A stretch of 64,000 bases of DNA. Source: Escherichia coli (GTDB lineage: Bacteria > Pseudomonadota > Gammaproteobacteria > Enterobacterales > Enterobacteriaceae). Positions 8,957 through 61,533 of this stretch are shown here, piece by piece. Location: assembly GCF_029227855.1 (NCBI RefSeq), contig NZ_CP074356.1. One strand, 5' to 3'. A model generated the notes under the pieces. The model did not search any database. It was given only the letters and a program-made list of their open reading frames with translations, and was not told the origin of the DNA. The stretch's first letter is position 1; every line of letters starts with the position of its first letter. The translations under genes and the position numbers were made by a program.

Positions 8957-9672
8957 TTAATTGTGCACAGAAAACCCCCAGCTAGGCTGGGGGTTCCGGA
9001 AAGCTTTCAGCTTTGAGCCAGTTATTAAAACCCCTTTTGATTTGTTAAAACACTTTGCGGTCTGGCAACTGCAAGTGTCAAACAAGAAATCAAAAGGGGG
9101 TCCCAATGGGGAACGAAAAGAGCTTAGCGCACACCCGATGGAACTGTAAATATCACATAGTTTTTGCGCCAAAATACCGAAGACAGGTGTTCTACAGAGA
9201 GAAGCGTAGAGCAATAGGCAGTATTTTGAGAAAGCTGTGTGAGTGGAAAAGCGTACGGATTCTGGAAGCTGAATGCTGTGCAGATCATATCCATATGCTT
9301 GTGGAGATCCCGCCCAAAATGAGCGTATCCGGGTTTATGGGATATCTGAAAGGGAAAAGCAGTCTGATGCTTTACGAGCAGTTTGGTGATTTGAAATTCA
9401 AATACAGGAACAGGGAGTTCTGGTGCAGAGGGTACTACGTCGATACAGTGGGTAAGAACACGGCGAAGATACAGGATTACATAAAGCACCAGCTTGAAGA
9501 GGATAAAATGGGAGAGCAGTTATCGATTCCCTATCCGGGCAGCCCGTTTACGGGCCGTAAGTAACGAAGTTGGATGCAAATGTCAGATCGTGTGCGCCTG
9601 TTAGGGCGCGGCTGGTAAGAGAGCCTTATAGGCGCATTTGAAAAACCTCCGGCTATGCCGGAGGATATTTAT
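8957..9672 (+). mobile_element. IS200 insertion sequence (IS200/IS605 family), about 0.7 kb; ends approximate
   Basis: Contains a 152-aa Y1 transposase essentially identical to IS200 TnpA as I recall it. Left-end terminator hairpin cccccagc-tag-gctggggg (about 8973-8993), long-range pairing ccccttttg/caaaagggg that would occlude the tnpA RBS, and right-end hairpin cctccggc-tat-gccggagg (about 9647-9665). Confidence 0.8.
9106..9564 (+). CDS. tnpA: IS200 transposase TnpA (HuH Y1 tyrosine transposase, 152 aa)
   Basis: ORF 9055..9564; protein from MGNEKSLAHTRWNCKYHIVFAPKYRRQVFY...HIHMLVEIPPK...YIKHQLEED matches IS200 TnpA (HuH motif HIH). Confidence 0.9.
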   Translation: MGNEKSLAHTRWNCKYHIVFAPKYRRQVFYREKRRAIGSILRKLCEWKSVRILEAECCADHIHMLVEIPPKMSVSGFMGYLKGKSSLMLYEQFGDLKFKYRNREFWCRGYYVDTVGKNTAKIQDYIKHQLEEDKMGEQLSIPYPGSPFTGRK

Positions 9673-11989: not shown

Positions 11990-12030
11990 TTGCCGGATAA
12001 TATAAAAAGTTATCCGGCAAATTATTTTTT
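11990..12030. terminator. Bidirectional terminator between convergent yggM and TRAP permease gene
   Basis: tgccggataa-tataaaaag-ttatccggca followed by attatttttt. Confidence 0.6.
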
Positions 12031-13330
12031 ACATTAGCCCTAGTAGCTGTGGAATGAACAAGGATATTTGCGGGATGTAAGTGATCATCATCAACGCGAT
12101 TAACAATGCGGCATAAAATGGCAGCAATGGTTTGATCAAATGTTGAATCTTCACACCTGAAATAGAACAACCAACAAATAGCGCACTACCCACCGGCGGT
12201 GTTAACAGCCCAATACAAAGGTTGGCCACCATCATAATACCGAAATGTACCGGATCCATTCCCAGCTCTTGTGCAATCGGCAAGAAGATTGGTGTGAAGA
12301 TTAGTACAGCCGGTGTCATGTCCATAAAGATGCCGACAATTAATAAGACGATATTAATCAGCAGCAATATGATCAGTGGGTTATCAGAAATCCCCATCAA
12401 CGCGTCGCTGATCATATAAGGAATATCAGCATTGGTCATTGACCAGGACATGCCCACGGAAAAACCGATCAACAGTAATACAATCGAAGTGGTAACAACC
12501 GATTCCAGAATCAGTTTGGGTAAATCGCGCCATTTTACTTCCCGGTAAATCAGCACCGAGAGAATAAATGTGTAGACAACGGCAATCGCAGACGCTTCAG
12601 TTGCGGTAAAAATGCCGCCCAGAATGCCGCCCATTACAATGAACACCAGAAGCAAACTTGGTAAGGCATCCAGAAACGCTTTACAGGCCTGAGCAAAGGT
12701 TGCTCTTTCTGAAAGTGGGTAGCCACGGCGTTTAGCAATAATGCCGCAGACTATCATTACCGCAAGACCCATTAAGATCCCTGGCAAATATCCCGCCATA
12801 AATAGCGATGCTACAGAAACGCCGCCAGCTGTCAGGGAAAACACAATTAACACGTTTGAGGGCGGTATCAGTAATCCAGTAATACAGGATGAGACGTTTA
12901 CAGCGGTAGAAAATGCCGGATCATAACCTTGTTTGGTCTGAATGGGATTCAGTGTGCCACCAACGGCAGCAGCTGCCGCAACGGCTGAACCAGAAATGGA
13001 ACCAAACATCATATTCGCCAGGACGTTCACATGACCAAGTGAACTAGGAACCCGACCAACCATTACCTGGGCGAGGTTAATCAAACGTATCGCAATACCG
13101 CCGCTGTTCATCAGCGTTCCGGCAAAGATGAAAAAGGGGATTGCCAATAGGGCAAAGTTATCCAGTCCATTAGCCAGTCGCTGCGAAACAGTGATTGCCG
13201 CGATATCCCAGGGAAACATCAACAGCATTGAAGCTACAGTGGCAATACCGATTGAGAACGAAATGGGCACACCAATAAAGACCAGCACAAAAAAACAGCC
13301 AAATAGTGTAAGCGCAATATAACTATCCAT
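12029..13330 (-). CDS. TRAP transporter large permease subunit (DctM family, 433 aa)
   Basis: Highly hydrophobic 433-aa ORF, MDSYIALTLFGCFFVLVFIGVPISFSIGIATVASMLLMFPWD...; typical DctM architecture. Start overlaps the stop of the upstream small permease. Confidence 0.85.
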   Translation of the reverse strand: MDSYIALTLFGCFFVLVFIGVPISFSIGIATVASMLLMFPWDIAAITVSQRLANGLDNFALLAIPFFIFAGTLMNSGGIAIRLINLAQVMVGRVPSSLGHVNVLANMMFGSISGSAVAAAAAVGGTLNPIQTKQGYDPAFSTAVNVSSCITGLLIPPSNVLIVFSLTAGGVSVASLFMAGYLPGILMGLAVMIVCGIIAKRRGYPLSERATFAQACKAFLDALPSLLLVFIVMGGILGGIFTATEASAIAVVYTFILSVLIYREVKWRDLPKLILESVVTTSIVLLLIGFSVGMSWSMTNADIPYMISDALMGISDNPLIILLLINIVLLIVGIFMDMTPAVLIFTPIFLPIAQELGMDPVHFGIMMVANLCIGLLTPPVGSALFVGCSISGVKIQHLIKPLLPFYAALLIALMMITYIPQISLFIPQLLGLM

Positions 13331-13842
13331 TAACTGGCCTCCTGCGCAGGTTGTTTCAGTTGTTGAATGCTTTGATTAATAAAACACAAGGCATAAAACA
13401 TCATCACCACTCCACTTAATGGCAGAATGATATATACGTATCCCATCGGTATTTGCATCGCGGCAGATACTTGTGATGTTGCCAGCGTTTTATCAATTAA
13501 TTTCAGGCCACCAGTCACAATGACCGAACCGGCAAAACCTAAAATGAGAATGTTAATGACTATACTAAGAAGTAATTGCTTGCGCTTATTCAGGGCGAGA
13601 GCAAATAAATCGATAGAGAGATGTCTCTGCGCGCCGACGGTATATGCAGCACCTAATAATCCTACCCAGATCATCAAAAAGCGTGCCAGCTCATCGGTTA
13701 ATGTACTTGGCTGGTTAAGTACGTAGCGGCTAAATACTTGCCAGACTACGCATACAACCAGAGCAAGCATTACGGCGACAGAAAACGCGGCAATGACGCG
13801 GTCTACCGCAAGTTTCAGGCGGTTAAATATCATTGTAAGCAT
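13330..13842 (-). CDS. TRAP transporter small permease subunit (DctQ family, 170 aa)
   Basis: 170-aa four-TM protein MLTMIFNRLKLAVDRVIAAFSVAVMLALVVCVVWQVFSRYVLNQPSTLTDELARF..., between the SBP and the large permease. Confidence 0.8.
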   Translation of the reverse strand: MLTMIFNRLKLAVDRVIAAFSVAVMLALVVCVVWQVFSRYVLNQPSTLTDELARFLMIWVGLLGAAYTVGAQRHLSIDLFALALNKRKQLLLSIVINILILGFAGSVIVTGGLKLIDKTLATSQVSAAMQIPMGYVYIILPLSGVVMMFYALCFINQSIQQLKQPAQEAS

Positions 13843-13877
13843 CCTGGAAAATCAGGGCCAGAGACTGGCCCGAAATA

Positions 13878-14864
13878 TTATTGAGCAGCGTTGTCGAATT
13901 TCTCTAACAAAGCAGCTTGTTTTGGATCTTTTTTGAAGTCGTCAAACAGAGGTTGAACTGCGGCACGGAATGGGGCTTTATCAACCTTAACGATTTCACC
14001 ACCCATAGCTTTCGCTTGAGCACGTGTGTCAGCGTCAATTTTTTCCCACAATTTTTGTTGATAAGCTTCGGATTTCTTCGCCGCTGTTTCGAGGATTTGT
14101 TGCTGTTCTGGGGTTAATTTATTCCATGTTTTGGTGGAGATAACCAAAAAGTCAGGAATTGAGGCATGTTCATCTTCAGAAAAGACTTTGGCAATTTCGA
14201 TATGTCGAGTCTGCACCCAGGAAGGCACGTTATTTTCTGCGCCATCTACTACACCTTGCTGCATCGCAGTATAAACTTCGCCAAATGAAATTGGAGTGGG
14301 TGAGCCACCCATCAGTTCAATCATTTTGATGGTGGTCGGGCTTGGCTGAACACGAATTTTCAGCCCTTTAAGATCTTCTGGCTTAGTAATCGGTTTTTTC
14401 GCATAGAAACTGCGTGTACCCGCTACATAAGCTGATAAAGCAAAAAAGCCTTTATCTTTTGTTGAATCCATAATTTCTTTACCAACTTCACCAAAAACCA
14501 CTTTGTTGAAGTGCGCCTGATCTTTAAATAAGAACGGCAAATTATAGATAGCATAAATATTATCAAAAGACTCCAGATCACTGGCGGAACCTTTGGTCAT
14601 ATCCAGTGCACCATTTTGCAACAACTCCATAGTTTCTCGCGCATTACCCATCTGGCTGCTGGGGTAAATACGGATCACCATATTACCTTTTGACAGCTGT
14701 TTTACTTCTTTCGCCAGCTTTTCAAAACTCTGATGTACAACATGACTTCTTTCCAGGTTGTGTGCTAACTTTAACGTCACTTTTTCTGCGGCGTTTACGC
14801 CAGTGCTAACCAGAGCCAGCAAGGATGCGCAGACTAATGAGCGGGTAAATGACCTCATTTTCAT
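13878..14864 (-). CDS. TRAP transporter periplasmic substrate-binding protein (DctP family, 328 aa)
   Basis: Signal peptide MKMRSFTRSLVCASLLALVSTGVNA, DctP-family fold; a conserved Arg (AGTRSFY) is consistent with carboxylate binding. Substrate unknown. Confidence 0.85.
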   Translation of the reverse strand: MKMRSFTRSLVCASLLALVSTGVNAAEKVTLKLAHNLERSHVVHQSFEKLAKEVKQLSKGNMVIRIYPSSQMGNARETMELLQNGALDMTKGSASDLESFDNIYAIYNLPFLFKDQAHFNKVVFGEVGKEIMDSTKDKGFFALSAYVAGTRSFYAKKPITKPEDLKGLKIRVQPSPTTIKMIELMGGSPTPISFGEVYTAMQQGVVDGAENNVPSWVQTRHIEIAKVFSEDEHASIPDFLVISTKTWNKLTPEQQQILETAAKKSEAYQQKLWEKIDADTRAQAKAMGGEIVKVDKAPFRAAVQPLFDDFKKDPKQAALLEKFDNAAQ

Positions 14865-54446: not shown

Positions 54447-55340
54447 TTAATCCTGACGAAGGACTTTGTGACCATAATCGAGTAACGCATCAGTGACTTT
54501 ACGCATCATGCGGCTTTCAGGAGCAAAGCGGTGCCAGTAGAGCATCCGTCGTTGAAATAGCCCAGGCGTTAAGTCAATCAGTTCACCGCTGGCCAGCTCT
54601 TTCTCGATTTGCAGGTGCGGGATCATACAGCAGGTGGTGCCCTGGCGAGCAAGTTGCACGAACGCTTCTGAAGAATTAACAATATGGCACGGTACGCTGC
54701 CTGGGGGCAGATCGAAGTTTTGCTGCAAAAAGGCCTGGTGCATATCGTCAAGATGGTCAAAGGCGACCACTGGCGCTTTTAGCAGAGCCGAACGCGTTAC
54801 GCCGTTAGGGAAATATTTTTCGGCAAACGGTTTTGAGCTGACGAATAGATAGTCGAGCGCACCGAGCTTATCGACAAGACAACTCGGCAGCGCCTGATGT
54901 TGAATACTCACCGCGCCGACCACTTCGCCGCGGCGCAGACGTTCCTGAGTGCGGGTTTCATCTTCTACCTGCAAGTTGAGGCGGATAGGCGAATCAGCTA
55001 ACACAGGAGCCAGCGCCGGAAGCAACCACGTCGCCAGACTGTCTGCGTTGACCGCCAGTGAAAGCAGCAGCGGAGTCGAACCGGTTTGTTCATCGCCCAG
55101 CCACTCTTCTTCCAGCAACTCCACCTGGCGCAGCAGTGCCAGCAGTTTTTGCCCTTGTTCTGTCGGGCGCGGCGGTACGGTACGCACCAACAGCGGCTGC
55201 CCGAACATATTTTCCAGTTGCTTAATGCGCTGTGAGACGGCTGATTGTGTAATGCACAGCTTTTGTGCCGCGCGCTCAAATCCTCGTTCACGTATCACCG
55301 CATCCAGTGCCTGTAATGTTCTGTAGTCCGGGCGTTTCAT
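54447..55340 (-). CDS. argP: LysR-family regulator ArgP (IciA, 297 aa)
   Basis: ORF 54447..55406; protein from [43 protein letters not shown]; start trimmed. Confidence 0.92.
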
Positions 55341-55722
55341 TGCTGTTGTCTGCTCCTGGTAAATGCTTTTTCCTGCACTATGACACAATTTTGTGTCAGG
55401 TTGCATATACCGAAGCCGTCGGCGGGTAACATTTGTATCAATGGTTAAACGCGCAGCTTAAAAGATCAGGGATTTGCGCTATTGCATTTCGCTTAGCGAC
55501 TTCGCGCCCTGGTTATGTTGAATGGCGTGGCGTTATTGCCTCTGTTCGCACCGTGGAGCGGCATACCCAGACCGTTGTATGCTTTATTTGCCGGGCGAAA
55601 GGGGATGCCCGCCATTGCGCGATATTTTATGGATGAGTTAACCACGCGGCTTGCCAACGGGGTCTGAATCGCTTTTTTTGTATATAATGCGTGTGAAATT
55701 TCATACCACAGGCGAAACGATC

Positions 55723-56382
55723 ATGACGCAGGATGAATTGAAAAAAGCAGTAGGATGGGCGGCACTTCAGTATGTTCAGCCCGGCACCATTGTTGGTGTA
55801 GGTACAGGTTCCACCGCCGCACACTTTATTGACGCGCTCGGCACGATGAAAGGCCAGATTGAAGGGGCCGTTTCCAGTTCGGATGCTTCCACTGAAAAAC
55901 TGAAAAGCCTCGGCATTCACGTTTTTGATCTCAACGAAGTCGACAGCCTTGGCATCTACGTTGATGGCGCAGATGAAATCAACGGCCACATGCAAATGAT
56001 CAAAGGCGGCGGCGCGGCGCTGACCCGTGAAAAAATCATTGCTTCGGTTGCGGAAAAATTTATCTGTATTGCCGACGCTTCCAAGCAGGTTGATATTCTG
56101 GGCAAATTCCCGCTGCCAGTAGAAGTTATCCCGATGGCACGTAGTGCAGTGGCGCGCCAGCTGGTGAAACTGGGCGGTCGTCCGGAATACCGTCAGGGCG
56201 TGGTGACCGATAACGGCAACGTGATCCTCGACGTCCACGGCATGGAAATCCTTGACCCGATAGCGATGGAAAACGCCATAAATGCGATTCCTGGCGTGGT
56301 GACTGTTGGCTTGTTTGCTAACCGTGGCGCGGACGTTGCGCTGATTGGCACACCTGACGGTGTCAAAACCATTGTGAAATGA
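55723..56382 (+). CDS. rpiA: Ribose-5-phosphate isomerase A (219 aa)
   Basis: ORF 55651..56382; protein from [39 protein letters not shown]; start trimmed. Confidence 0.94.
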
Positions 56383-56637
56383 TCTGACGGGGGAACCTCC
56401 CCCGTTAAAAAAATTCTCTTCATTAAATTTGGTGACATGTGTCACGTTTTTACCTGGCTATTGTCGATTGCTCTAAATAAACCCTCTAAACCAGCATATT
56501 CATCCAAGAAATACCTTTGCGTGATATTTCCTCAACATCGCGACGCAAACGTTCATATTGCCGCAATATTATTTTTTGATATGTTGAAAGGCGGATGCAA
56601 ATCCGCACACAACATTTCAAAAGACAGGATTGGGTAA

Positions 56638-57870
56638 ATGGCAAAGGTATCGCTGGAGAAAGACAAGATTAAGTTTCTGCTGGTAGAAGGCGTGCACCAA
56701 AAGGCGCTTGAAAGCCTTCGTGCAGCGGGTTACACCAACATCGAATTTCACAAAGGCGCGCTGGATGATGAACAATTAAAAGAATCCATCCGCGATGCCC
56801 ACTTCATCGGCCTGCGATCCCGTACCCATCTGACTGAAGACGTGATCAACGCCGCAGAAAAACTGGTCGCTATTGGCTGTTTCTGTATCGGAACAAACCA
56901 GGTTGATCTGGATGCGGCGGCAAAACGCGGTATCCCGGTATTTAACGCACCGTTCTCAAATACGCGCTCTGTTGCGGAGCTGGTGATTGGCGAACTGCTG
57001 CTGCTATTGCGCGGCGTGCCGGAAGCCAATGCTAAAGCGCACCGTGGCGTGTGGAACAAACTGGCGGCGGGTTCTTTTGAAGCGCGCGGCAAAAAGCTGG
57101 GTATCATCGGCTACGGTCATATTGGTACGCAATTGGGCATTCTGGCTGAATCGCTGGGAATGTATGTTTACTTTTATGATATTGAAAACAAACTGCCGCT
57201 GGGCAACGCCACTCAGGTACAGCATCTTTCTGACCTGCTGAATATGAGCGATGTGGTGAGTCTGCATGTACCAGAGAATCCGTCCACCAAAAATATGATG
57301 GGTGCGAAAGAGATTTCACTAATGAAGCCCGGCTCGCTGCTGATTAATGCTTCGCGCGGTACTGTGGTGGATATTCCGGCGCTGTGTGACGCGCTGGCGA
57401 GCAAACATCTGGCGGGGGCGGCAATCGACGTATTCCCGACGGAACCGGCAACCAATAGCGATCCATTTACCTCTCCGCTGTGTGAATTCGACAACGTCCT
57501 TCTGACGCCACACATTGGCGGTTCGACTCAGGAAGCGCAGGAGAATATCGGCCTGGAAGTTGCGGGTAAATTGATCAAGTATTCTGACAATGGCTCAACG
57601 CTCTCTGCGGTGAACTTCCCGGAAGTCTCGCTGCCACTGCACGGTGGGCGTCGTCTGATGCACATCCACGAAAACCGTCCGGGCGTGCTAACTGCGCTGA
57701 ACAAAATCTTCGCCGAGCAGGGCGTCAACATCGCCGCGCAATATCTACAAACTTCCGCCCAGATGGGTTATGTGGTTATTGATATTGAAGCCGACGAAGA
57801 CGTTGCCGAAAAAGCGCTGCAGGCAATGAAAGCTATTCCGGGTACCATTCGCGCCCGTCTGCTGTACTAA
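56638..57870 (+). CDS. serA: D-3-phosphoglycerate dehydrogenase (410 aa)
   Basis: MAKVSLEKDKIKFLLVEGVHQKALESLRAAGYTNIEFHKGALDDEQLKE...; C-terminal ACT domain. Confidence 0.95.
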   Translation: MAKVSLEKDKIKFLLVEGVHQKALESLRAAGYTNIEFHKGALDDEQLKESIRDAHFIGLRSRTHLTEDVINAAEKLVAIGCFCIGTNQVDLDAAAKRGIPVFNAPFSNTRSVAELVIGELLLLLRGVPEANAKAHRGVWNKLAAGSFEARGKKLGIIGYGHIGTQLGILAESLGMYVYFYDIENKLPLGNATQVQHLSDLLNMSDVVSLHVPENPSTKNMMGAKEISLMKPGSLLINASRGTVVDIPALCDALASKHLAGAAIDVFPTEPATNSDPFTSPLCEFDNVLLTPHIGGSTQEAQENIGLEVAGKLIKYSDNGSTLSAVNFPEVSLPLHGGRRLMHIHENRPGVLTALNKIFAEQGVNIAAQYLQTSAQMGYVVIDIEADEDVAEKALQAMKAIPGTIRARLLY

Positions 57871-57888
57871 TTCCCCTTCTCTGAAAAT

Positions 57889-57922
57889 CAACGGGCAGGT
57901 CACTGACTTGCCCGTTTTTTTA
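57889..57922 (+). terminator. Rho-independent terminator after serA
   Basis: acgggcaggtca-c-tgacttgcccgt followed by ttttttt. Confidence 0.75.
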
Positions 57923-58029
57923 TCCCTTCTCCACACTGTTGCCGCGTTGCGCATTCTACTTTGCGAGTCTGCTCCAGAAAATAAATCAAAGTCAGATCAA
58001 TGCATTGTGTTTATTTAATGGGGATTTAC

Positions 58030-58180
58030 GATGGCAGGACAGCACAGGGCTGTAACGGTAAAGCCCTCACCGAAGCGAGGGCTTGAAGGAGAAGGGTTAT
58101 GATGCGACTTGCCATCATACTGATTGTACTGTTACTCATAAGTTTCCCAGCTTATTAACAGTCAGTCACAGGGGAGGAGT
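58030..58180 (-). ncRNA. sibC: SibC antisense sRNA (type I antitoxin) overlapping ibsC; ends approximate
   Basis: Inferred from the ibsC ORF and flanking hairpins (aagccctc-accgaagc-gagggctt upstream; gggagga-gtaat-tcctccc downstream). Sib RNAs are encoded fully antisense to ibs ORFs. Boundaries not determinable by eye. Confidence 0.45.
58099..58158 (+). CDS. ibsC: Type I toxin IbsC (19-aa hydrophobic peptide)
   Basis: Hand-translated: MMRLAIILIVLLLISFPAY*, preceded by a strong SD (gaaggagaa); Ibs-family peptide in the serA-fau intergenic region where K-12 carries ibsC/sibC. Confidence 0.8.
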   Translation: MMRLAIILIVLLLISFPAY

Positions 58181-58258
58181 AATCCTCCCTTACCCTTACT
58201 CACTAAATTAGGTCAAAGAATCAACGATGTCAATCAGGGCGATGCAGGTGTGTCGCCC

Positions 58259-58807
58259 TCACCACTCCCAGACTTTCGACGGGGTAACCACCGCAGGCAG
58301 TGGGATATCCCACTCTTGAACGGGGAGTTTTTCCACCAACTGACAATCATGCGCATAACCCACCGGTTGCATTTTATAGTGCTGCCAGTTTTGTAAGGTC
58401 CGATCATAAAAACCACCGCCCATTCCCAGGCGCTGACCGTACTCATCAAAGGCGACCAGCGGTGTGATCAACACGTCTAATCGGGATAGGGGTAGCACGT
58501 CACGCACATCCAGTTTTGGCTCATGGATCTTCAACCTGTTCATCACCAGTTCGCTTTGCGGATGGTAATTCAGGAACAGCAAATTACCGGCACTAAAGGG
58601 ATGCAAAACTGGAAGATATACGCGCTTACCGGCGCGCCAGAGTTGTTCTATGAGTGGCTGGGTGTCGAGTTCGCCATCAAAAGAGAGGAATACAGCGACC
58701 GTATGTGCCATCACCACCGGGGGGTAAGTCATCATCCGGGTAGCGGCTTGTTGACCCATTTCCTGCTGTTGTTCCGGCGTTAACGCACGACGACGTTGCC
58801 GAATCAT
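58259..58807 (-). CDS. fau: 5-formyltetrahydrofolate cyclo-ligase (182 aa from MIRQRRR)
   Basis: ORF 58259..59005; protein from MIRQRRRALTPEQQQEMGQQAATRMMTYPPVV; the longer track ORF runs into ssrS, so the start is trimmed to the Met giving the 182-aa form. Confidence 0.85.
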   Translation of the reverse strand: MIRQRRRALTPEQQQEMGQQAATRMMTYPPVVMAHTVAVFLSFDGELDTQPLIEQLWRAGKRVYLPVLHPFSAGNLLFLNYHPQSELVMNRLKIHEPKLDVRDVLPLSRLDVLITPLVAFDEYGQRLGMGGGFYDRTLQNWQHYKMQPVGYAHDCQLVEKLPVQEWDIPLPAVVTPSKVWEW

Positions 58808-58879
58808 TTTGCGGATTTCTTGTCGGGATAATGTCTGTGGGAGTTCTGGTAGTTGCGTCATGGCTGGTGCCAGATAAGA

Positions 58880-59065
58880 AGGGAATCTCCGAGATGCCGC
58901 CGCAGGCTGTAACCCTTGAACCCTTGGTTCAAGGTGAATGTGTCGTCGCAGTTTTAAGGCTTCTCGGACGGACCGAGCATGCTCACCAACCGCGGAGCGC
59001 CACATTCTTGTGGTATGAAATATCGGCTCAGGGGACTGGCCCGCTTGCGAACATCTCAGAGAAAT
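58880..59065 (-). ncRNA. ssrS: 6S RNA (RNA polymerase sigma70-holoenzyme regulator)
   Basis: Reverse complement reads AUUUCUCUGAGAUGUUCGCAAGCGGGCCAGUCCCCUGAGCCGAUAUUUCAUACCACAAGAAUGUGGCGCUCCGCGG...GGAGAUUCCC, which matches the E. coli 6S RNA sequence as I recall it; lies between zapA and fau as in K-12. Confidence 0.88.
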
Positions 59066-59106
59066 TTTGTCTTCACGGTTACTCTACCACAGTAAACCGA
59101 AAAGTG

Positions 59107-59502
<396 letters not shown>

Positions 59503-59603
59503 CTATAGCTACCCTGATGAGAAGAGACAAGCCCTTTTCTGGTCCACCAGGGCCCAAAGTGGTAGCATATCATGAATATTCCTCCCTTTGACGACGAATG
59601 CTT

Positions 59604-60182
59604 ATGTCTATACAGAACGAAATGCCTGGTTACAACGAAATGAACCAGTATCTGAACCAACAAGGGACGGGTCTGACCCCTGCTGAGATGCATGGTTTAA
59701 TCAGTGGGATGATATGTGGCGGTAACGATGACAGCTCATGGCTGCCGCTACTTCACGACCTGACGAACGAAGGCATGGCTTTCGGTCATGAGCTGGCACA
59801 GGCACTGCGTAAAATGCACTCTGCCACCAGCGATGCCCTGCAGGATGACGGCTTCCTTTTTCAGCTTTATCTGCCTGATGGCGATGATGTCAGCGTTTTC
59901 GATCGGGCTGATGCGCTGGCAGGTTGGGTCAATCACTTCCTGCTTGGTCTTGGCGTTACGCAACCGAAGCTGGACAAAGTGACCGGCGAAACCGGTGAAG
60001 CCATCGACGATCTGCGTAACATCGCGCAGCTGGGCTACGACGAAGACGAAGATCAGGAAGAGCTTGAAATGTCGCTTGAAGAGATCATCGAATACGTTCG
60101 TGTTGCCGCGCTGTTATGCCACGACACCTTTACTCATCCGCAACCGACCGCGCCAGAAGTACAAAAACCGACTCTACACTAA
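59604..60182 (+). CDS. ygfB: UPF0149 protein YgfB (192 aa)
   Basis: ORF 59598..60182; protein from [40 protein letters not shown]; start trimmed. Confidence 0.88.
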
Positions 60183-60207
60183 AAACAAAAAACGTAAGGA
60201 GAGTGTT

Positions 60208-61533
60208 ATGAGTGAGATATCCCGGCAAGAGTTTCAGCGTCGCCGTCAGGCCCTGGTGGAGCAAATGCAACCCGGCAGCGCCGCGCTGATTTTTGCTGCA
60301 CCAGAAGTAACACGTAGCGCCGACAGCGAATACCCCTATCGTCAGAACAGTGACTTCTGGTACTTCACCGGCTTTAACGAACCGGAAGCGGTGCTGGTGC
60401 TGATTAAAAGCGATGACACTCATAACCACAGCGTTTTGTTTAACCGCGTTCGCGACCTGACGGCAGAGATCTGGTTTGGTCGTCGCTTAGGTCAGGATGC
60501 CGCGCCAGAGAAACTGGGTGTTGATCGCGCTCTGGCATTCAGCGAAATTAATCAGCAACTTTATCAACTACTTAATGGTCTGGATGTGGTTTACCACGCC
60601 CAGGGCGAATATGCATATGCTGATGAAATCGTGAACAGTGCGCTGGAAAAACTGCGTAAAGGCTCGCGGCAAAATCTTACCGCACCGGCAACGATGATCG
60701 ACTGGCGTCCCATTGTTCATGAAATGCGCCTGTTCAAATCGCCGGAAGAGATTGCCGTACTTCGCCGCGCGGGGGAAATTACCGCCTTGGCGCATACCCG
60801 GGCGATGGAAAAATGCCGTCCGGGAATGTTCGAGTACCATCTGGAAGGCGAAATTCACCACGAATTTAACCGCCACGGTGCGCGTTATCCGTCCTACAAC
60901 ACCATCGTCGGCAGCGGTGAAAACGGCTGCATTCTGCACTACACCGAAAACGAGAGTGAACTGCGCGACGGTGACCTGGTGTTGATTGACGCGGGTTGTG
61001 AATACAAAGGTTACGCGGGCGATATTACCCGCACCTTCCCGGTCAACGGCAAATTCACTCAGGCCCAGCGTGAAATCTACGACATTGTGCTGGAGTCTCT
61101 TGAAACCAGCCTGCGCCTGTATCGTCCGGGAACTTCCATGCAGGAAGTCACTGGTGAAGTGGTGCGTATCATGGTTAGCGGCCTGGTAAAACTCGGCATC
61201 CTGAAAGGTGATGTTGATGAACTGATCGCTCAGAACGCCCATCGTCCTTTCTTTATGCATGGCCTTAGCCACTGGTTAGGACTGGATGTCCATGACGTTG
61301 GCGTTTATGGTCAGGATCGCTCGCGCATTCTGGAACCTGGGATGGTACTGACCGTAGAGCCTGGTCTGTATATCGCGCCGGATGCGGATGTGCCAGAACA
61401 ATATCGCGGTATCGGCATTCGTATTGAAGACGACATTGTGATTACCGAAACCGGCAACGAAAACCTCACCGCCAGCGTGGTGAAAAAGCCGGAAGAAATC
61501 GAAGCGTTGATGGCTGCTGCGAGAAAGCAATGA
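60208..61533 (+). CDS. pepP: Xaa-Pro aminopeptidase (441 aa)
   Basis: ORF 59995..61533; protein from MSEISRQEFQRRRQALVEQMQPGSAALIFAAPEVTRSADSEYPYRQNSDFWYFTGF; start trimmed. Confidence 0.93.
   Translation: MSEISRQEFQRRRQALVEQMQPGSAALIFAAPEVTRSADSEYPYRQNSDFWYFTGFNEPEAVLVLIKSDDTHNHSVLFNRVRDLTAEIWFGRRLGQDAAPEKLGVDRALAFSEINQQLYQLLNGLDVVYHAQGEYAYADEIVNSALEKLRKGSRQNLTAPATMIDWRPIVHEMRLFKSPEEIAVLRRAGEITALAHTRAMEKCRPGMFEYHLEGEIHHEFNRHGARYPSYNTIVGSGENGCILHYTENESELRDGDLVLIDAGCEYKGYAGDITRTFPVNGKFTQAQREIYDIVLESLETSLRLYRPGTSMQEVTGEVVRIMVSGLVKLGILKGDVDELIAQNAHRPFFMHGLSHWLGLDVHDVGVYGQDRSRILEPGMVLTVEPGLYIAPDADVPEQYRGIGIRIEDDIVITETGNENLTASVVKKPEEIEALMAAARKQ

What the first reader, a model, noticed from the sequence alone, without database searches (positions are those of the whole stretch)
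58030..58180. Type I toxin-antitoxin locus ibsC/sibC in the serA-fau intergenic region
A 19-codon ORF with a strong Shine-Dalgarno encodes MMRLAIILIVLLLISFPAY, an Ibs-family membrane-toxic peptide. In E. coli such ORFs are repressed by a fully overlapping antisense Sib sRNA on the opposite strand. The ORF is far below any ORF-caller threshold and would be missed by routine annotation. This copy differs from the K-12 IbsC as I recall it at two positions (A for V, P for S), a recollection I cannot verify here.
Basis: partly seen in the sequence, partly recalled or inferred. Interest (0 to 1): 0.4.

Follow-up and report, generated by a model that had tools for sequence, protein, structure and literature searches.

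The report
Known ibsC/sibC toxin-antitoxin locus
This is the well-known E. coli ibsC/sibC type I toxin-antitoxin pair (a 19-residue membrane toxin gene covered by an antisense RNA) sitting in its usual place between serA and fau, in a common natural allele, so it is real but ordinary.

Summary
Window 58099..58158 (+) encodes MMRLAIILIVLLLISFPAY behind an AAGGAG Shine-Dalgarno. The minus strand gives a full-length Rfam SIB_RNA hit (138.5 bits, gathering score 56). The peptide matches Pfam Ibs_toxin (43.8 bits, cut-off 27).

The window is E. coli. The locus lies between serA and fau, exactly as K-12 ibsC/sibC does. Mapping the curated K-12 transcripts gives SibC at 58197->58057 (-) and the ibsC mRNA at 58039..58197 (+).

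K-12 IbsC is MMRLVIILIVLLLISFSAY, so the recalled V5A and S17P differences are true. They are not new. The exact ORF occurs in 1,519 of 5,426 complete E. coli genomes and is already in RefSeq (WP_001387035.1, "Ibs family toxin"). The claim that routine annotation misses it therefore fails for NCBI PGAP, which omits only the Sib RNA.

Two small points add value:
- The S17P codon change is the antisense of SibC G49CU51, the TRD1 triplet that Han et al. (2010) showed sets target specificity. This triplet differs in every paralogue and allele examined.
- The site is copy-number polymorphic (0, 1 or 2 tandem copies). The window's transcribed region is 140/141 identical to the fau-proximal copy of one tandem locus, against 135/141 for K-12.

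Verdict: already known, low interest.

The parts
58005..58032 (+). Putative ibsC promoter: -35 TTGTGT (58005-58010), 16-nt spacer, -10 TACGAT (58027-58032)
   Evidence: Inferred from spacing to the ibsC transcription start that Han et al. 2010 mapped in K-12 (PMC2943612), transferred by alignment. The hexamers are identical to K-12, with one flanking change at 58004. The consensus scan did not call it.
58039..58197 (+). ibsC mRNA (159 nt by transfer from K-12)
   Evidence: Han et al. report a 159-nt mRNA with an 18-nt 5' overhang beyond the SibC 3' end. Their G50/G51/G53-to-C110/C109/C107 pairing fits these coordinates. The fold is -63.9 kcal/mol, z -5.39, with the Shine-Dalgarno unpaired.
58086..58091 (+). 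Shine-Dalgarno AAGGAG, 7 nt before the ATG
   Evidence: Read directly from the sequence. Identical to K-12.
58099..58158 (+). ibsC ORF, MMRLAIILIVLLLISFPAY plus stop
   Evidence: RefSeq CDS WP_001387035.1 at the same place in NZ_AP045174.1.
58057..58197 (-). SibC antitoxin RNA (141 nt), fully antisense to the ibsC Shine-Dalgarno and ORF
   Evidence: The curated K-12 sibC b4446 maps here without indels, 135/141 identical. The fold is -54.8 kcal/mol, z -4.09. The consensus structure over 8 Sib RNAs has 42 pairs, 10 with compensatory changes.
58205..58233 (-). sibC promoter: -35 TTGACA (58233-58228), 17-nt spacer, -10 TAATTT (58210-58205); start at A 58197
   Evidence: Identical to K-12 over 58190-58240. 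The position relative to the annotated K-12 5' end is. The Rfam model's first ~36 positions align to this promoter.
58130..58152 (-). TRD1 of SibC (+46..+68, P5 loop), pairing with ibsC codons 11-18; holds the discriminator triplet +49..+51 (58149-58147), UGG here and GCU in K-12
   Evidence: Domain limits and the G49CU51 swap experiment are from Han et al. 2010. The triplet lies in an 8-nt predicted loop.
58083..58099 (-). TRD2 of SibC (+99..+115, single-stranded CUCCUUC), pairing with the ibsC Shine-Dalgarno and start region
   Evidence: Han et al. 2010. Identical to K-12. Unpaired in the predicted fold.
58061..58084 (-). SibC terminator hairpin P7 (AAGCCCUCGC-UUCG-GUGAGGGCUU), followed by UACC
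   Evidence: Predicted stem of 10 pairs. Compensatory changes among paralogues. Identical to K-12. It lies outside the Rfam hit.
58083..58233 (-). Extent of the Rfam RF00113 SIB_RNA match, offset from the real transcript: it includes the promoter and lacks the terminator
   Evidence: Searches compared.

Best explanation
This is the chromosomal ibsC/sibC type I toxin-antitoxin locus of E. coli, in a common natural allele.

The plus strand makes a ~159-nt mRNA from a weak promoter. That mRNA encodes the 19-residue hydrophobic peptide IbsC. The minus strand makes the 141-nt SibC RNA from a near-consensus promoter. SibC is perfectly complementary to the Shine-Dalgarno, the ORF and the 3' end of the ibsC mRNA.

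SibC first contacts the mRNA in two ways. Its P5 loop (TRD1) meets the loop that holds codons 16-17. Its single-stranded CUCCUUC (TRD2) meets the Shine-Dalgarno. Pairing then spreads, translation is blocked and the mRNA is degraded, so the toxin is not made. If IbsC is made, it inserts into the inner membrane, depolarises it and stops growth.

Shown here: both genes, their positions, their family membership and the conserved RNA architecture. Also shown here: the cis arrangement keeps toxin and antitoxin perfectly matched in this allele. Inferred from K-12 experiments: transcription, repression and toxicity.
For: - Family hits: Rfam SIB_RNA 138.5 bits on the minus strand; Pfam Ibs_toxin 43.8 bits.
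- Position: the same serA-ibsC/sibC-fau-ssrS-zapA order as K-12.
- Similarity to K-12: SibC is 135/141 identical. The sibC promoter, Shine-Dalgarno, TRD2 and terminator are identical.
- Structure: five of the six SibC substitutions lie in predicted loops and the fold is unchanged (-54.8 against -55.3 kcal/mol). Eight Sib RNAs share a consensus of 42 pairs, 10 of them with compensatory changes. All eight keep an intact 18-19-codon ORF.
- Population: the exact ORF is intact in 1,519 of 5,426 genomes.
- Residue 17: proline occurs there in K-12 IbsB and IbsE.
- Mechanism, from the literature: Han et al. 2010, PMC2943612; review PMC8309996; sigma-S polymerase binding at sibC, PMC4447067.
Against: - There is no expression or toxicity data for this allele.
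- The review of Mok et al. 2010 says V5 is the one N-terminal residue whose loss affected toxicity. V5A could therefore weaken the toxin.
- The YUNR motif that Han et al. noted in the ibsC mRNA loop (UUCA in K-12) reads UUCC here. Initial pairing kinetics through TRD1 may differ.
- The ibsC +1 base is A rather than G, and one base next to the -35 differs.
- The physiological role of chromosomal ibs/sib loci remains unknown for the whole family.
Confidence: 0.94

Rival explanations
1. It is a chance hydrophobic mini-ORF with no antisense RNA gene.
For: The ORF is only 19 codons, and the simple consensus scan found no promoter.
Against: - Full-length Sib covariance-model hit, E 1.6e-29, and Pfam Ibs_toxin, E 2.2e-11.
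- The intergenic region matches 5,425 of 5,426 E. coli genomes, and an ibs CDS lay under the match in all 35 records inspected.
- It is the only mini-ORF of its kind in the window.
- The promoter scan failed only because the -10 hexamers match 3-4 of 6 positions. The sibC promoter is identical to the mapped K-12 one.
Confidence: 0.005
2. The locus is real but functionally decayed in this allele. V5A, S17P, or both, attenuate the toxin, or the ibsC promoter and +1 changes silence it. SibC would then be left as an orphan antisense RNA.
For: V5 is singled out as important among the N-terminal residues (review of Mok 2010). There are changes at 58004 and at the +1 base 58039. The ibsC-loop YUNR motif is lost. 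K-12 IbsB and IbsD are annotated only as 'putative' toxic peptides, so not every copy need be toxic.
Against: - The ORF, Shine-Dalgarno and both core promoter hexamers are intact.
- The exact ORF is kept in 1,519 genomes.
- A5 is still hydrophobic, and P17 occurs in IbsE, which is annotated as toxic.
- The review states that only about 10 hydrophobic residues plus the C-terminal part are required, and these are present.
Confidence: 0.06
3. A rival reading of identity only: the gene is not the strict orthologue of K-12 ibsC. It descends from the fau-proximal second copy of a tandem ibs/sib pair, through recombination or deletion between the two repeats, and now sits alone at the site.
For: - The window's transcribed region differs from strain 190 copy 2 at 1 of 141 positions. 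It differs from the V5/P17 single-copy allele at 2, from K-12 at 6 and from strain 190 copy 1 at 7.
- The peptide is identical to copy 2 (WP_001387035.1).
- PGAP calls it 'Ibs family toxin', not IbsC.
- The full 388-nt single-copy haplotype is rare, at least 99% identical in only 10 genomes, while the ORF is common.
- In the evenly spread sample, 8 of 30 rows share strain 190's identity class (95.6%, two places). That fraction matches the ORF's 28% frequency. Only strain 190 itself was opened.
Against: - Positions 58045-58046 (CA) match neither copy of strain 190. They match the V5/P17 single-copy haplotype (Ec42).
- 58180 and 58214 are not copy-2-like.
- The data fit equally well an Ec42-like allele with two point changes or a short gene conversion.
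- Too few informative sites exist and no phylogeny was made.
Confidence: 0.35

Closest known systems
E. coli K-12 ibsC (b4665) / sibC (b4446, formerly rygC, QUAD1c)
   Same: Same intergenic site between serA and fau and the same orientation. The transcript lengths are the same by alignment. The sibC promoter, Shine-Dalgarno, TRD2 and terminator are identical. SibC is 135/141 identical and the peptide 17/19 identical.
   Different: Peptide changes V5A and S17P. SibC changes G18A, A30U, G49U, C50G, U51G and A86G. The TRD1 discriminator triplet is therefore UGG instead of GCU. The predicted TRD1 duplex with the non-cognate K-12 target is 12 kcal/mol weaker than with the cognate target.
The fau-proximal copy of the tandem ibs/sib pair at the same site (for example E. 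coli strain 190, WP_001387035.1)
   Same: Identical 60-nt ORF and peptide. 140/141 identical over the SibC region.
   Different: In those genomes it is the second of two tandem units and has a different upstream (ibs promoter spacer) sequence. In the window it is the only copy and carries the copy-1/K-12-type upstream region.
K-12 paralogues ibsA/sibA, ibsB/sibB, ibsD/sibD, ibsE/sibE
   Same: Same architecture: an 18-19-codon ORF inside a ~140-nt antisense RNA, with a shared consensus fold. Proline at residue 17 occurs in IbsB and IbsE.
   Different: Other chromosomal sites. Only 89-112 of 141 aligned positions are identical. The longest Watson-Crick run overlapping TRD1 is 14 bp or less and overlapping TRD2 13 bp or less, so no cross-recognition is predicted from K-12 sequences.
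Other cis-antisense type I toxin-antitoxin systems (hok/sok, ldr/rdl)
   Same: A small hydrophobic membrane toxin whose mRNA is silenced by an antisense RNA. Multi-copy in enterobacterial chromosomes.
   Different: According to Han et al., Sib is unusual in covering the whole functional mRNA, both the translation initiation region and the ORF. The Ibs toxin is much shorter, 19 aa against 35-52 aa.

Membership tests
Ibs toxin family (Pfam PF13956) | 18-19-residue, highly hydrophobic peptide matching the Ibs profile | tested here: met
   43.8 bits against a cut-off of 27, E 2.2e-11, profile positions 1-19 of 19 (one X was added to reach the tool's 20-residue minimum). K-12 IbsC scores 45.0 in the same run.
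Ibs toxin family (Pfam PF13956) | Translatable ORF: Shine-Dalgarno, ATG start, intact frame | tested here: met
   AAGGAG 7 nt upstream of ATGATG, with a TAA stop. The Shine-Dalgarno is predicted to be unpaired in the mRNA.
Ibs toxin family (Pfam PF13956) | Overproduction depolarises the membrane and stops growth | not testable with these tools
   Shown for K-12 IbsC only, as summarised in PMC8309996 and PMC2943612.
Sib antitoxin RNA (Rfam RF00113) | Covariance-model match above the gathering score, on the strand opposite the ibs ORF | tested here: met
   138.5 bits against 56, full model, minus strand, 58233..58083.
Sib antitoxin RNA (Rfam RF00113) | About 140-nt transcript with its own promoter and terminator hairpin that spans the whole ibs translation initiation region and ORF | tested here: met
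   By gap-free alignment to the curated 141-nt K-12 sibC, with identical promoter and terminator sequence. It covers 58057..58197 and so contains the Shine-Dalgarno and the ORF. Transcription itself was not observed.
Sib antitoxin RNA (Rfam RF00113) | Conserved secondary structure (P1, P2, P5, P6, P7) with TRD1 in a loop and TRD2 single-stranded | tested here: met
   MFE fold z -4.09. RNAalifold consensus of 42 pairs, 10 with compensatory changes. The triplet +49..+51 lies in an 8-nt loop and +107..+113 is unpaired.
Sib antitoxin RNA (Rfam RF00113) | Represses its cognate ibs mRNA and discriminates against non-cognate ones | not testable with these tools
   Only pairing potential was computed. 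The cognate TRD1 duplex is -38.3 kcal/mol, against -26.3 with the K-12 ibsC target. Watson-Crick runs with K-12 ibsA, B, D and E are 14 bp or less. Paralogues from the same genome were not retrieved.
The ibsC/sibC locus specifically (orthologue of K-12 b4665/b4446) | Located in the serA-fau intergenic region | tested here: met
   serA ends at 57870 and fau ends at 58259, with the same neighbours rpiA, ssrS and zapA.
The ibsC/sibC locus specifically (orthologue of K-12 b4665/b4446) | Closest in sequence to K-12 ibsC/sibC rather than to another ibs/sib unit | tested here: inconclusive
   It is far closer to K-12 sibC (135/141) than to sibA, B, D or E (89-112). It is closer still to the second tandem copy found at this site in other strains (140/141). 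RefSeq names the product 'Ibs family toxin', not IbsC.

The most novel reading that the evidence does not exclude
The three-base stretch that is both ibs codon 17 and SibC +49..+51 may act as an 'address' that is pushed to diversify, among alleles and tandem copies at one site as well as between the five K-12 paralogues. Residue 17 of the toxin would then be free to be S, P, G, A or Q because selection acts on RNA-RNA specificity rather than on the peptide. On this reading the window's single-copy A5/P17 locus is a recombinant of a tandem pair. The reading extends Han et al.'s paralogue observation to population-level variation. It rests here on only eight sequences and three allele counts.
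Probability: 0.2. Interest if true: 0.3.

Novelty: already known. Interest (0 to 1): 0.08.

Why it matters
It matters little as a discovery. The locus, its mechanism and even this exact allele are already in the literature and in RefSeq. The check does show that the first-stage reader can recognise a 19-codon gene and its antisense partner from raw sequence. It also yields three practical cautions:
- The Rfam SIB_RNA boundaries are shifted relative to the mapped transcript. The hit includes the promoter and lacks the terminator, so it should not be used as transcript coordinates.
- PGAP annotates the toxin but not the antitoxin RNA, so type I pairs look like orphan toxins in RefSeq records.
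- K-12 is not representative of the species at this site. Only about 40% of complete genomes carry its ibsC allele, and about a third appear to carry two tandem copies.

Tried and rejected
- NCBIfam hmmscan found no Ibs model. The 19-aa peptide is below the tool's length minimum and had to be padded or doubled. The negative result is uninformative, and Pfam worked.
- The sigma-70 consensus scan found no promoter in 57850-58300. Both -10 hexamers match only 3-4 of 6 positions. I relied instead on identity to the K-12 promoters and mapped ends.
- The terminator scan found only the serA terminator (57890-57916). It missed the Sib P7 hairpin, whose U-tract is short.
- Fozo et al. 2008 and Mok et al. 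2010 could not be read. Their findings are cited only through Han et al. 2010 and the 2021 review.
- I tried to find sibD/sibE of the near-identical genome JNEC-KY178, to test same-genome cross-talk, by walking from the expected position. The region is rearranged (lptFG next to an island), so I gave up. Cross-talk was assessed against K-12 paralogues only.
- I considered that the window allele's TRD1 (UGG) might match SibD's (UGC) and create cross-recognition. The longest Watson-Crick run overlapping TRD1 is 14 bp. Han et al. report a contiguous 22-bp helix for their engineered specificity switch. I rejected the idea.
- I considered a clean copy-1 by copy-2 crossover origin. Sites 58045-46, 58180 and 58214 do not fit strain 190's copies, so the origin is left open.
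- No large protein or metagenome searches were run. The answer did not need them.

Full report
**1. What is in the sequence**

Window 58099..58158 on the plus strand reads ATGATGCGACTTGCCATC...GCTTATTAA and translates to MMRLAIILIVLLLISFPAY. AAGGAG lies at 58086..58091, 7 nt before the first of two in-frame ATGs.

I screened every ATG mini-ORF of 15-25 codons on both strands of the 64-kb window. Of 319 such ORFs, 11 have a Shine-Dalgarno core. Only this ORF, counted from either of its two ATGs, also has at least 70% hydrophobic residues.

With one X added to reach the tool's length minimum, the peptide matches Pfam PF13956 Ibs_toxin at 43.8 bits against a cut-off of 27 (E 2.2e-11). K-12 IbsC scores 45.0 in the same run.

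On the minus strand, Rfam RF00113 (SIB_RNA, typed "antitoxin") matches 58233..58083. The score is 138.5 bits against a gathering score of 56, E 1.6e-29, over the full model.

**2. Where it is**

- The window is E. coli. Positions 54871-61258 are identical to NZ_AP045174.1 (strain JNEC-KY178), and positions 1-50000 differ from it at 6 bases.
- The gene order is argP, rpiA, serA, ibs ORF, fau (opposite strand), ssrS (6S RNA), zapA, ygfB, pepP. This is the K-12 order.
- The 388-nt serA-fau intergenic region matches 5,425 of 5,426 complete E. coli genomes.

**3. Transcript anatomy, by transfer from K-12**

NC_000913.3 annotates sibC (b4446) as a 141-nt RNA that overlaps ibsC (b4665) completely. 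The window aligns to K-12 across the intergenic region with 13 substitutions and no indels. The K-12 features therefore map as follows.

- **SibC:** 58197 -> 58057 on the minus strand.
- **sibC promoter:** TTGACA (58233-58228), a 17-nt spacer, then TAATTT (58210-58205), with the start 7 nt further on. The stretch 58190-58240 is identical to K-12.
- **ibsC mRNA:** Han et al. 2010 (PMC2943612) mapped the ibsC transcription start. They used a 159-nt mRNA with an 18-nt 5' overhang beyond the SibC 3' end. This puts the mRNA at 58039..58197. Their reported G50/G51/G53 to C110/C109/C107 pairings fit these coordinates exactly.
- **ibsC promoter:** TTGTGT, 16 nt, TACGAT (58005-58032) is my inference from spacing.
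- **Promoter arrangement:** the two promoters face each other, so the transcripts are convergent and fully overlapping, not divergent.
- **Rfam offset:** the first ~36 positions of the Rfam model align to the sib promoter, and the hit stops just before the terminator hairpin (58061-58084). The Rfam coordinates are thus shifted by about 36 nt at the 5' end and 26 nt at the 3' end relative to the real RNA.

**4. RNA structure**

- The window's SibC folds to -54.8 kcal/mol, with z -4.09 against 200 shuffles.
- The architecture is the one Han et al. describe. P1 pairs +1-6 with +101-106. P2, the P5 hairpin and P6 follow. +107-113 (CUCCUUC) is single-stranded, and a P7 terminator closes the RNA.
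- The ibsC mRNA folds to -63.9 kcal/mol, z -5.39, with GAAGGAG unpaired.
- I aligned eight Sib RNAs: the window, K-12 A-E and two O157 copies. The consensus has 42 pairs, and 10 of them keep pairing through changes on both sides, mainly in P2, P5 and P7.
- All eight units keep an intact 18-19-codon ORF beginning ATGATG.

**5. How the window allele differs from K-12**

K-12 IbsC is MMRLVIILIVLLLISFSAY. At the RNA level SibC differs at six positions.

| SibC change | Location |
|---|---|
| G18A | P2 loop |
| A30U | a short stem |
| G49U, C50G, U51G | P5 loop |
| A86G | first base of the P6 loop; the GUCG that Han et al. found helpful for TRD2 is kept |

The triple change is the antisense of codon 17 (AGC to CCA). 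It is exactly the G49CU51 triplet that Han et al. replaced to retarget SibC's TRD1 from ibsC to ibsD. TRD2 is unchanged.

Because the antitoxin is the reverse complement of the toxin mRNA, cognate pairing is preserved automatically. The computed TRD1 duplex is -38.3 kcal/mol with the cognate target and -26.3 with the K-12 target.

This triplet differs in each of the seven distinct Sib sequences compared.

| Sib RNA | Triplet +49..+51 |
|---|---|
| K-12 SibC | GCU |
| Window SibC | UGG |
| SibD | UGC |
| SibE | CGG |
| SibA | CUG |
| SibB | GGG |
| O157 copy 1 | UCC |

O157 copy 2 shares UGG but differs at the next base.

Against the K-12 paralogues, the window's SibC has Watson-Crick runs of at most 14 bp overlapping TRD1 and at most 13 bp overlapping TRD2. 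No new cross-recognition is predicted.

One detail: the YUNR motif that Han et al. noted in the ibsC mRNA loop (UUCA in K-12) reads UUCC here. The SibC loop keeps a YUNR (CUGG). Whether this changes pairing kinetics is unknown.

**6. The allele is common, and the site is polymorphic**

Exact 60-nt ORF counts among 5,426 complete genomes are as follows.

| Allele | Genomes |
|---|---|
| K-12 type (V5/S17) | 2,160 |
| V5/P17 | 1,200 |
| Window (A5/P17) | 1,519 |

- The window's peptide is RefSeq WP_001387035.1, "type I toxin-antitoxin system Ibs family toxin". The statement that routine annotation would miss it does not hold for PGAP. PGAP records do omit the sibC RNA while annotating ssrS next door.
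- The site holds no copy in O157:H7 TR01 and one copy in K-12 and in the window. It holds two tandem copies in O157 AR-0429 and strain 190.
- The 7,311 places in 5,425 genomes imply about 1,886 genomes with two places. In both such genomes that I opened, the second place is a tandem copy.
- In strain 190 the fau-proximal copy encodes the window's peptide exactly. Over the SibC region, the window differs from that copy at 1 base. It differs from the single-copy V5/P17 allele (Ec42) at 2, from K-12 at 6 and from strain 190 copy 1 at 7.
- The window's whole 388-nt haplotype is rare, at least 99% identical in only 10 genomes.
- The window therefore looks like a mosaic: an upstream part of the copy-1/K-12/Ec42 type and a transcribed part almost identical to copy 2. 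A recombination or gene-conversion origin is plausible. It is not demonstrated, because sites 58045-46, 58180 and 58214 do not fit a simple crossover.
- Within strain 190, the two tandem copies differ from each other at eight positions of the transcribed region. Two lie in the TRD1 triplet and one in TRD2 (58085, SibC +113). This agrees with the discrimination model.

**7. Mechanism**

*Shown here:* the genes, their overlap, family membership, conserved fold, and intact regulatory and coding signals.

*Taken from K-12 experiments* (Han et al. 2010; review PMC8309996):
- Sib RNAs are made constitutively.
- TRD1 (loop-loop, inside the ORF) and TRD2 (single strand against the Shine-Dalgarno) each suffice to start pairing.
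- Pairing spreads into a partial duplex, and the ibsC mRNA is degraded.
- Overproduced IbsC depolarises the membrane within minutes, induces psp genes and kills or arrests the cell.
- Sigma-S RNA polymerase binds at sibC, with temperature-dependent effects (PMC4447067).

*Inferred:* the same holds for the A5/P17 allele. The main uncertainty is V5A, because the review singles out V5 as the one N-terminal residue that mattered in deletion analysis. Proline at 17 occurs naturally in IbsB and IbsE.

**8. Verdict**

The finding is real and correctly interpreted, but it is a textbook locus in a common allele that is already annotated. Novelty: already known. Interest is low. The most novel reading not excluded is that the codon-17/TRD1 triplet is under diversifying selection as a specificity address across alleles and tandem copies. 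That would be a modest extension of Han et al. and needs a population-scale analysis I could not run with these tools.

Noticed in passing
window 8973-9564: Rfam RF01405 STnc490 (144.6 bits, 8973-9096, +) lies directly upstream of an IS200C-family tnpA (9106-9564 in the near-identical JNEC-KY178 annotation). The IS200 element sits between yggN and ansB. From my own knowledge, STnc490 is the IS200 5' leader/antisense element, itself a cis-antisense regulator.
   Followed up: partly
window 58882-59065 (-) and 58234-58262: 6S RNA (ssrS, 139.8 bits) lies upstream of fau on the same strand as sibC. The fau stop codon (58259) is only 26 nt from the sibC -35, with a short GGGCGA/TCGCCC hairpin between them. 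Read-through from the ssrS-fau operon into sibC is conceivable.
   Followed up: no
window 58083-58233 (-): The Rfam SIB_RNA model is offset from the mapped transcript. Its 5' ~36 positions are the sib promoter (TTGACA-17-TAATTT), and it ends before the terminator hairpin. Rfam hit coordinates should not be taken as the RNA's ends.
   Followed up: yes
L001, L002, L003 (RefSeq PGAP records of the same locus): PGAP annotates the ibs toxin CDS and the neighbouring 6S RNA but no sibC ncRNA. Only the curated MG1655 record carries sibC. Type I pairs therefore appear as orphan toxins in most RefSeq genomes.
   Followed up: yes
serA-fau site in L003 (1501-2281), L015 (451-1230), L004 (3001-3207): The site is copy-number polymorphic in E. 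coli. There is no ibs/sib unit in O157:H7 TR01, one in K-12 and the window, and two tandem units (~780-nt intergenic region) in O157 AR-0429 and strain 190. About 1,886 of 5,425 genomes show two places.
   Followed up: partly
summary (E. coli genomes): One of the 7,311 matches to this chromosomal intergenic region is on a plasmid record. I did not look at it.
   Followed up: no
window 12029-14864 (-): Three TRAP transporter genes (large permease, small permease, substrate-binding protein) lie between yggM and hemW in the near-identical record. From memory they are absent from K-12. Not checked.
   Followed up: no
L008 (NZ_AP045174.1 780001-830000): In JNEC-KY178, lptF-lptG adjoin an island encoding serine palmitoyltransferase, an acyl carrier protein and a fatty acyl-AMP ligase, next to yghO and the glc operon. 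A T2SS and a kps capsule cluster lie further on. This indicates a rearrangement or island junction relative to K-12. It is outside the window.
   Followed up: no
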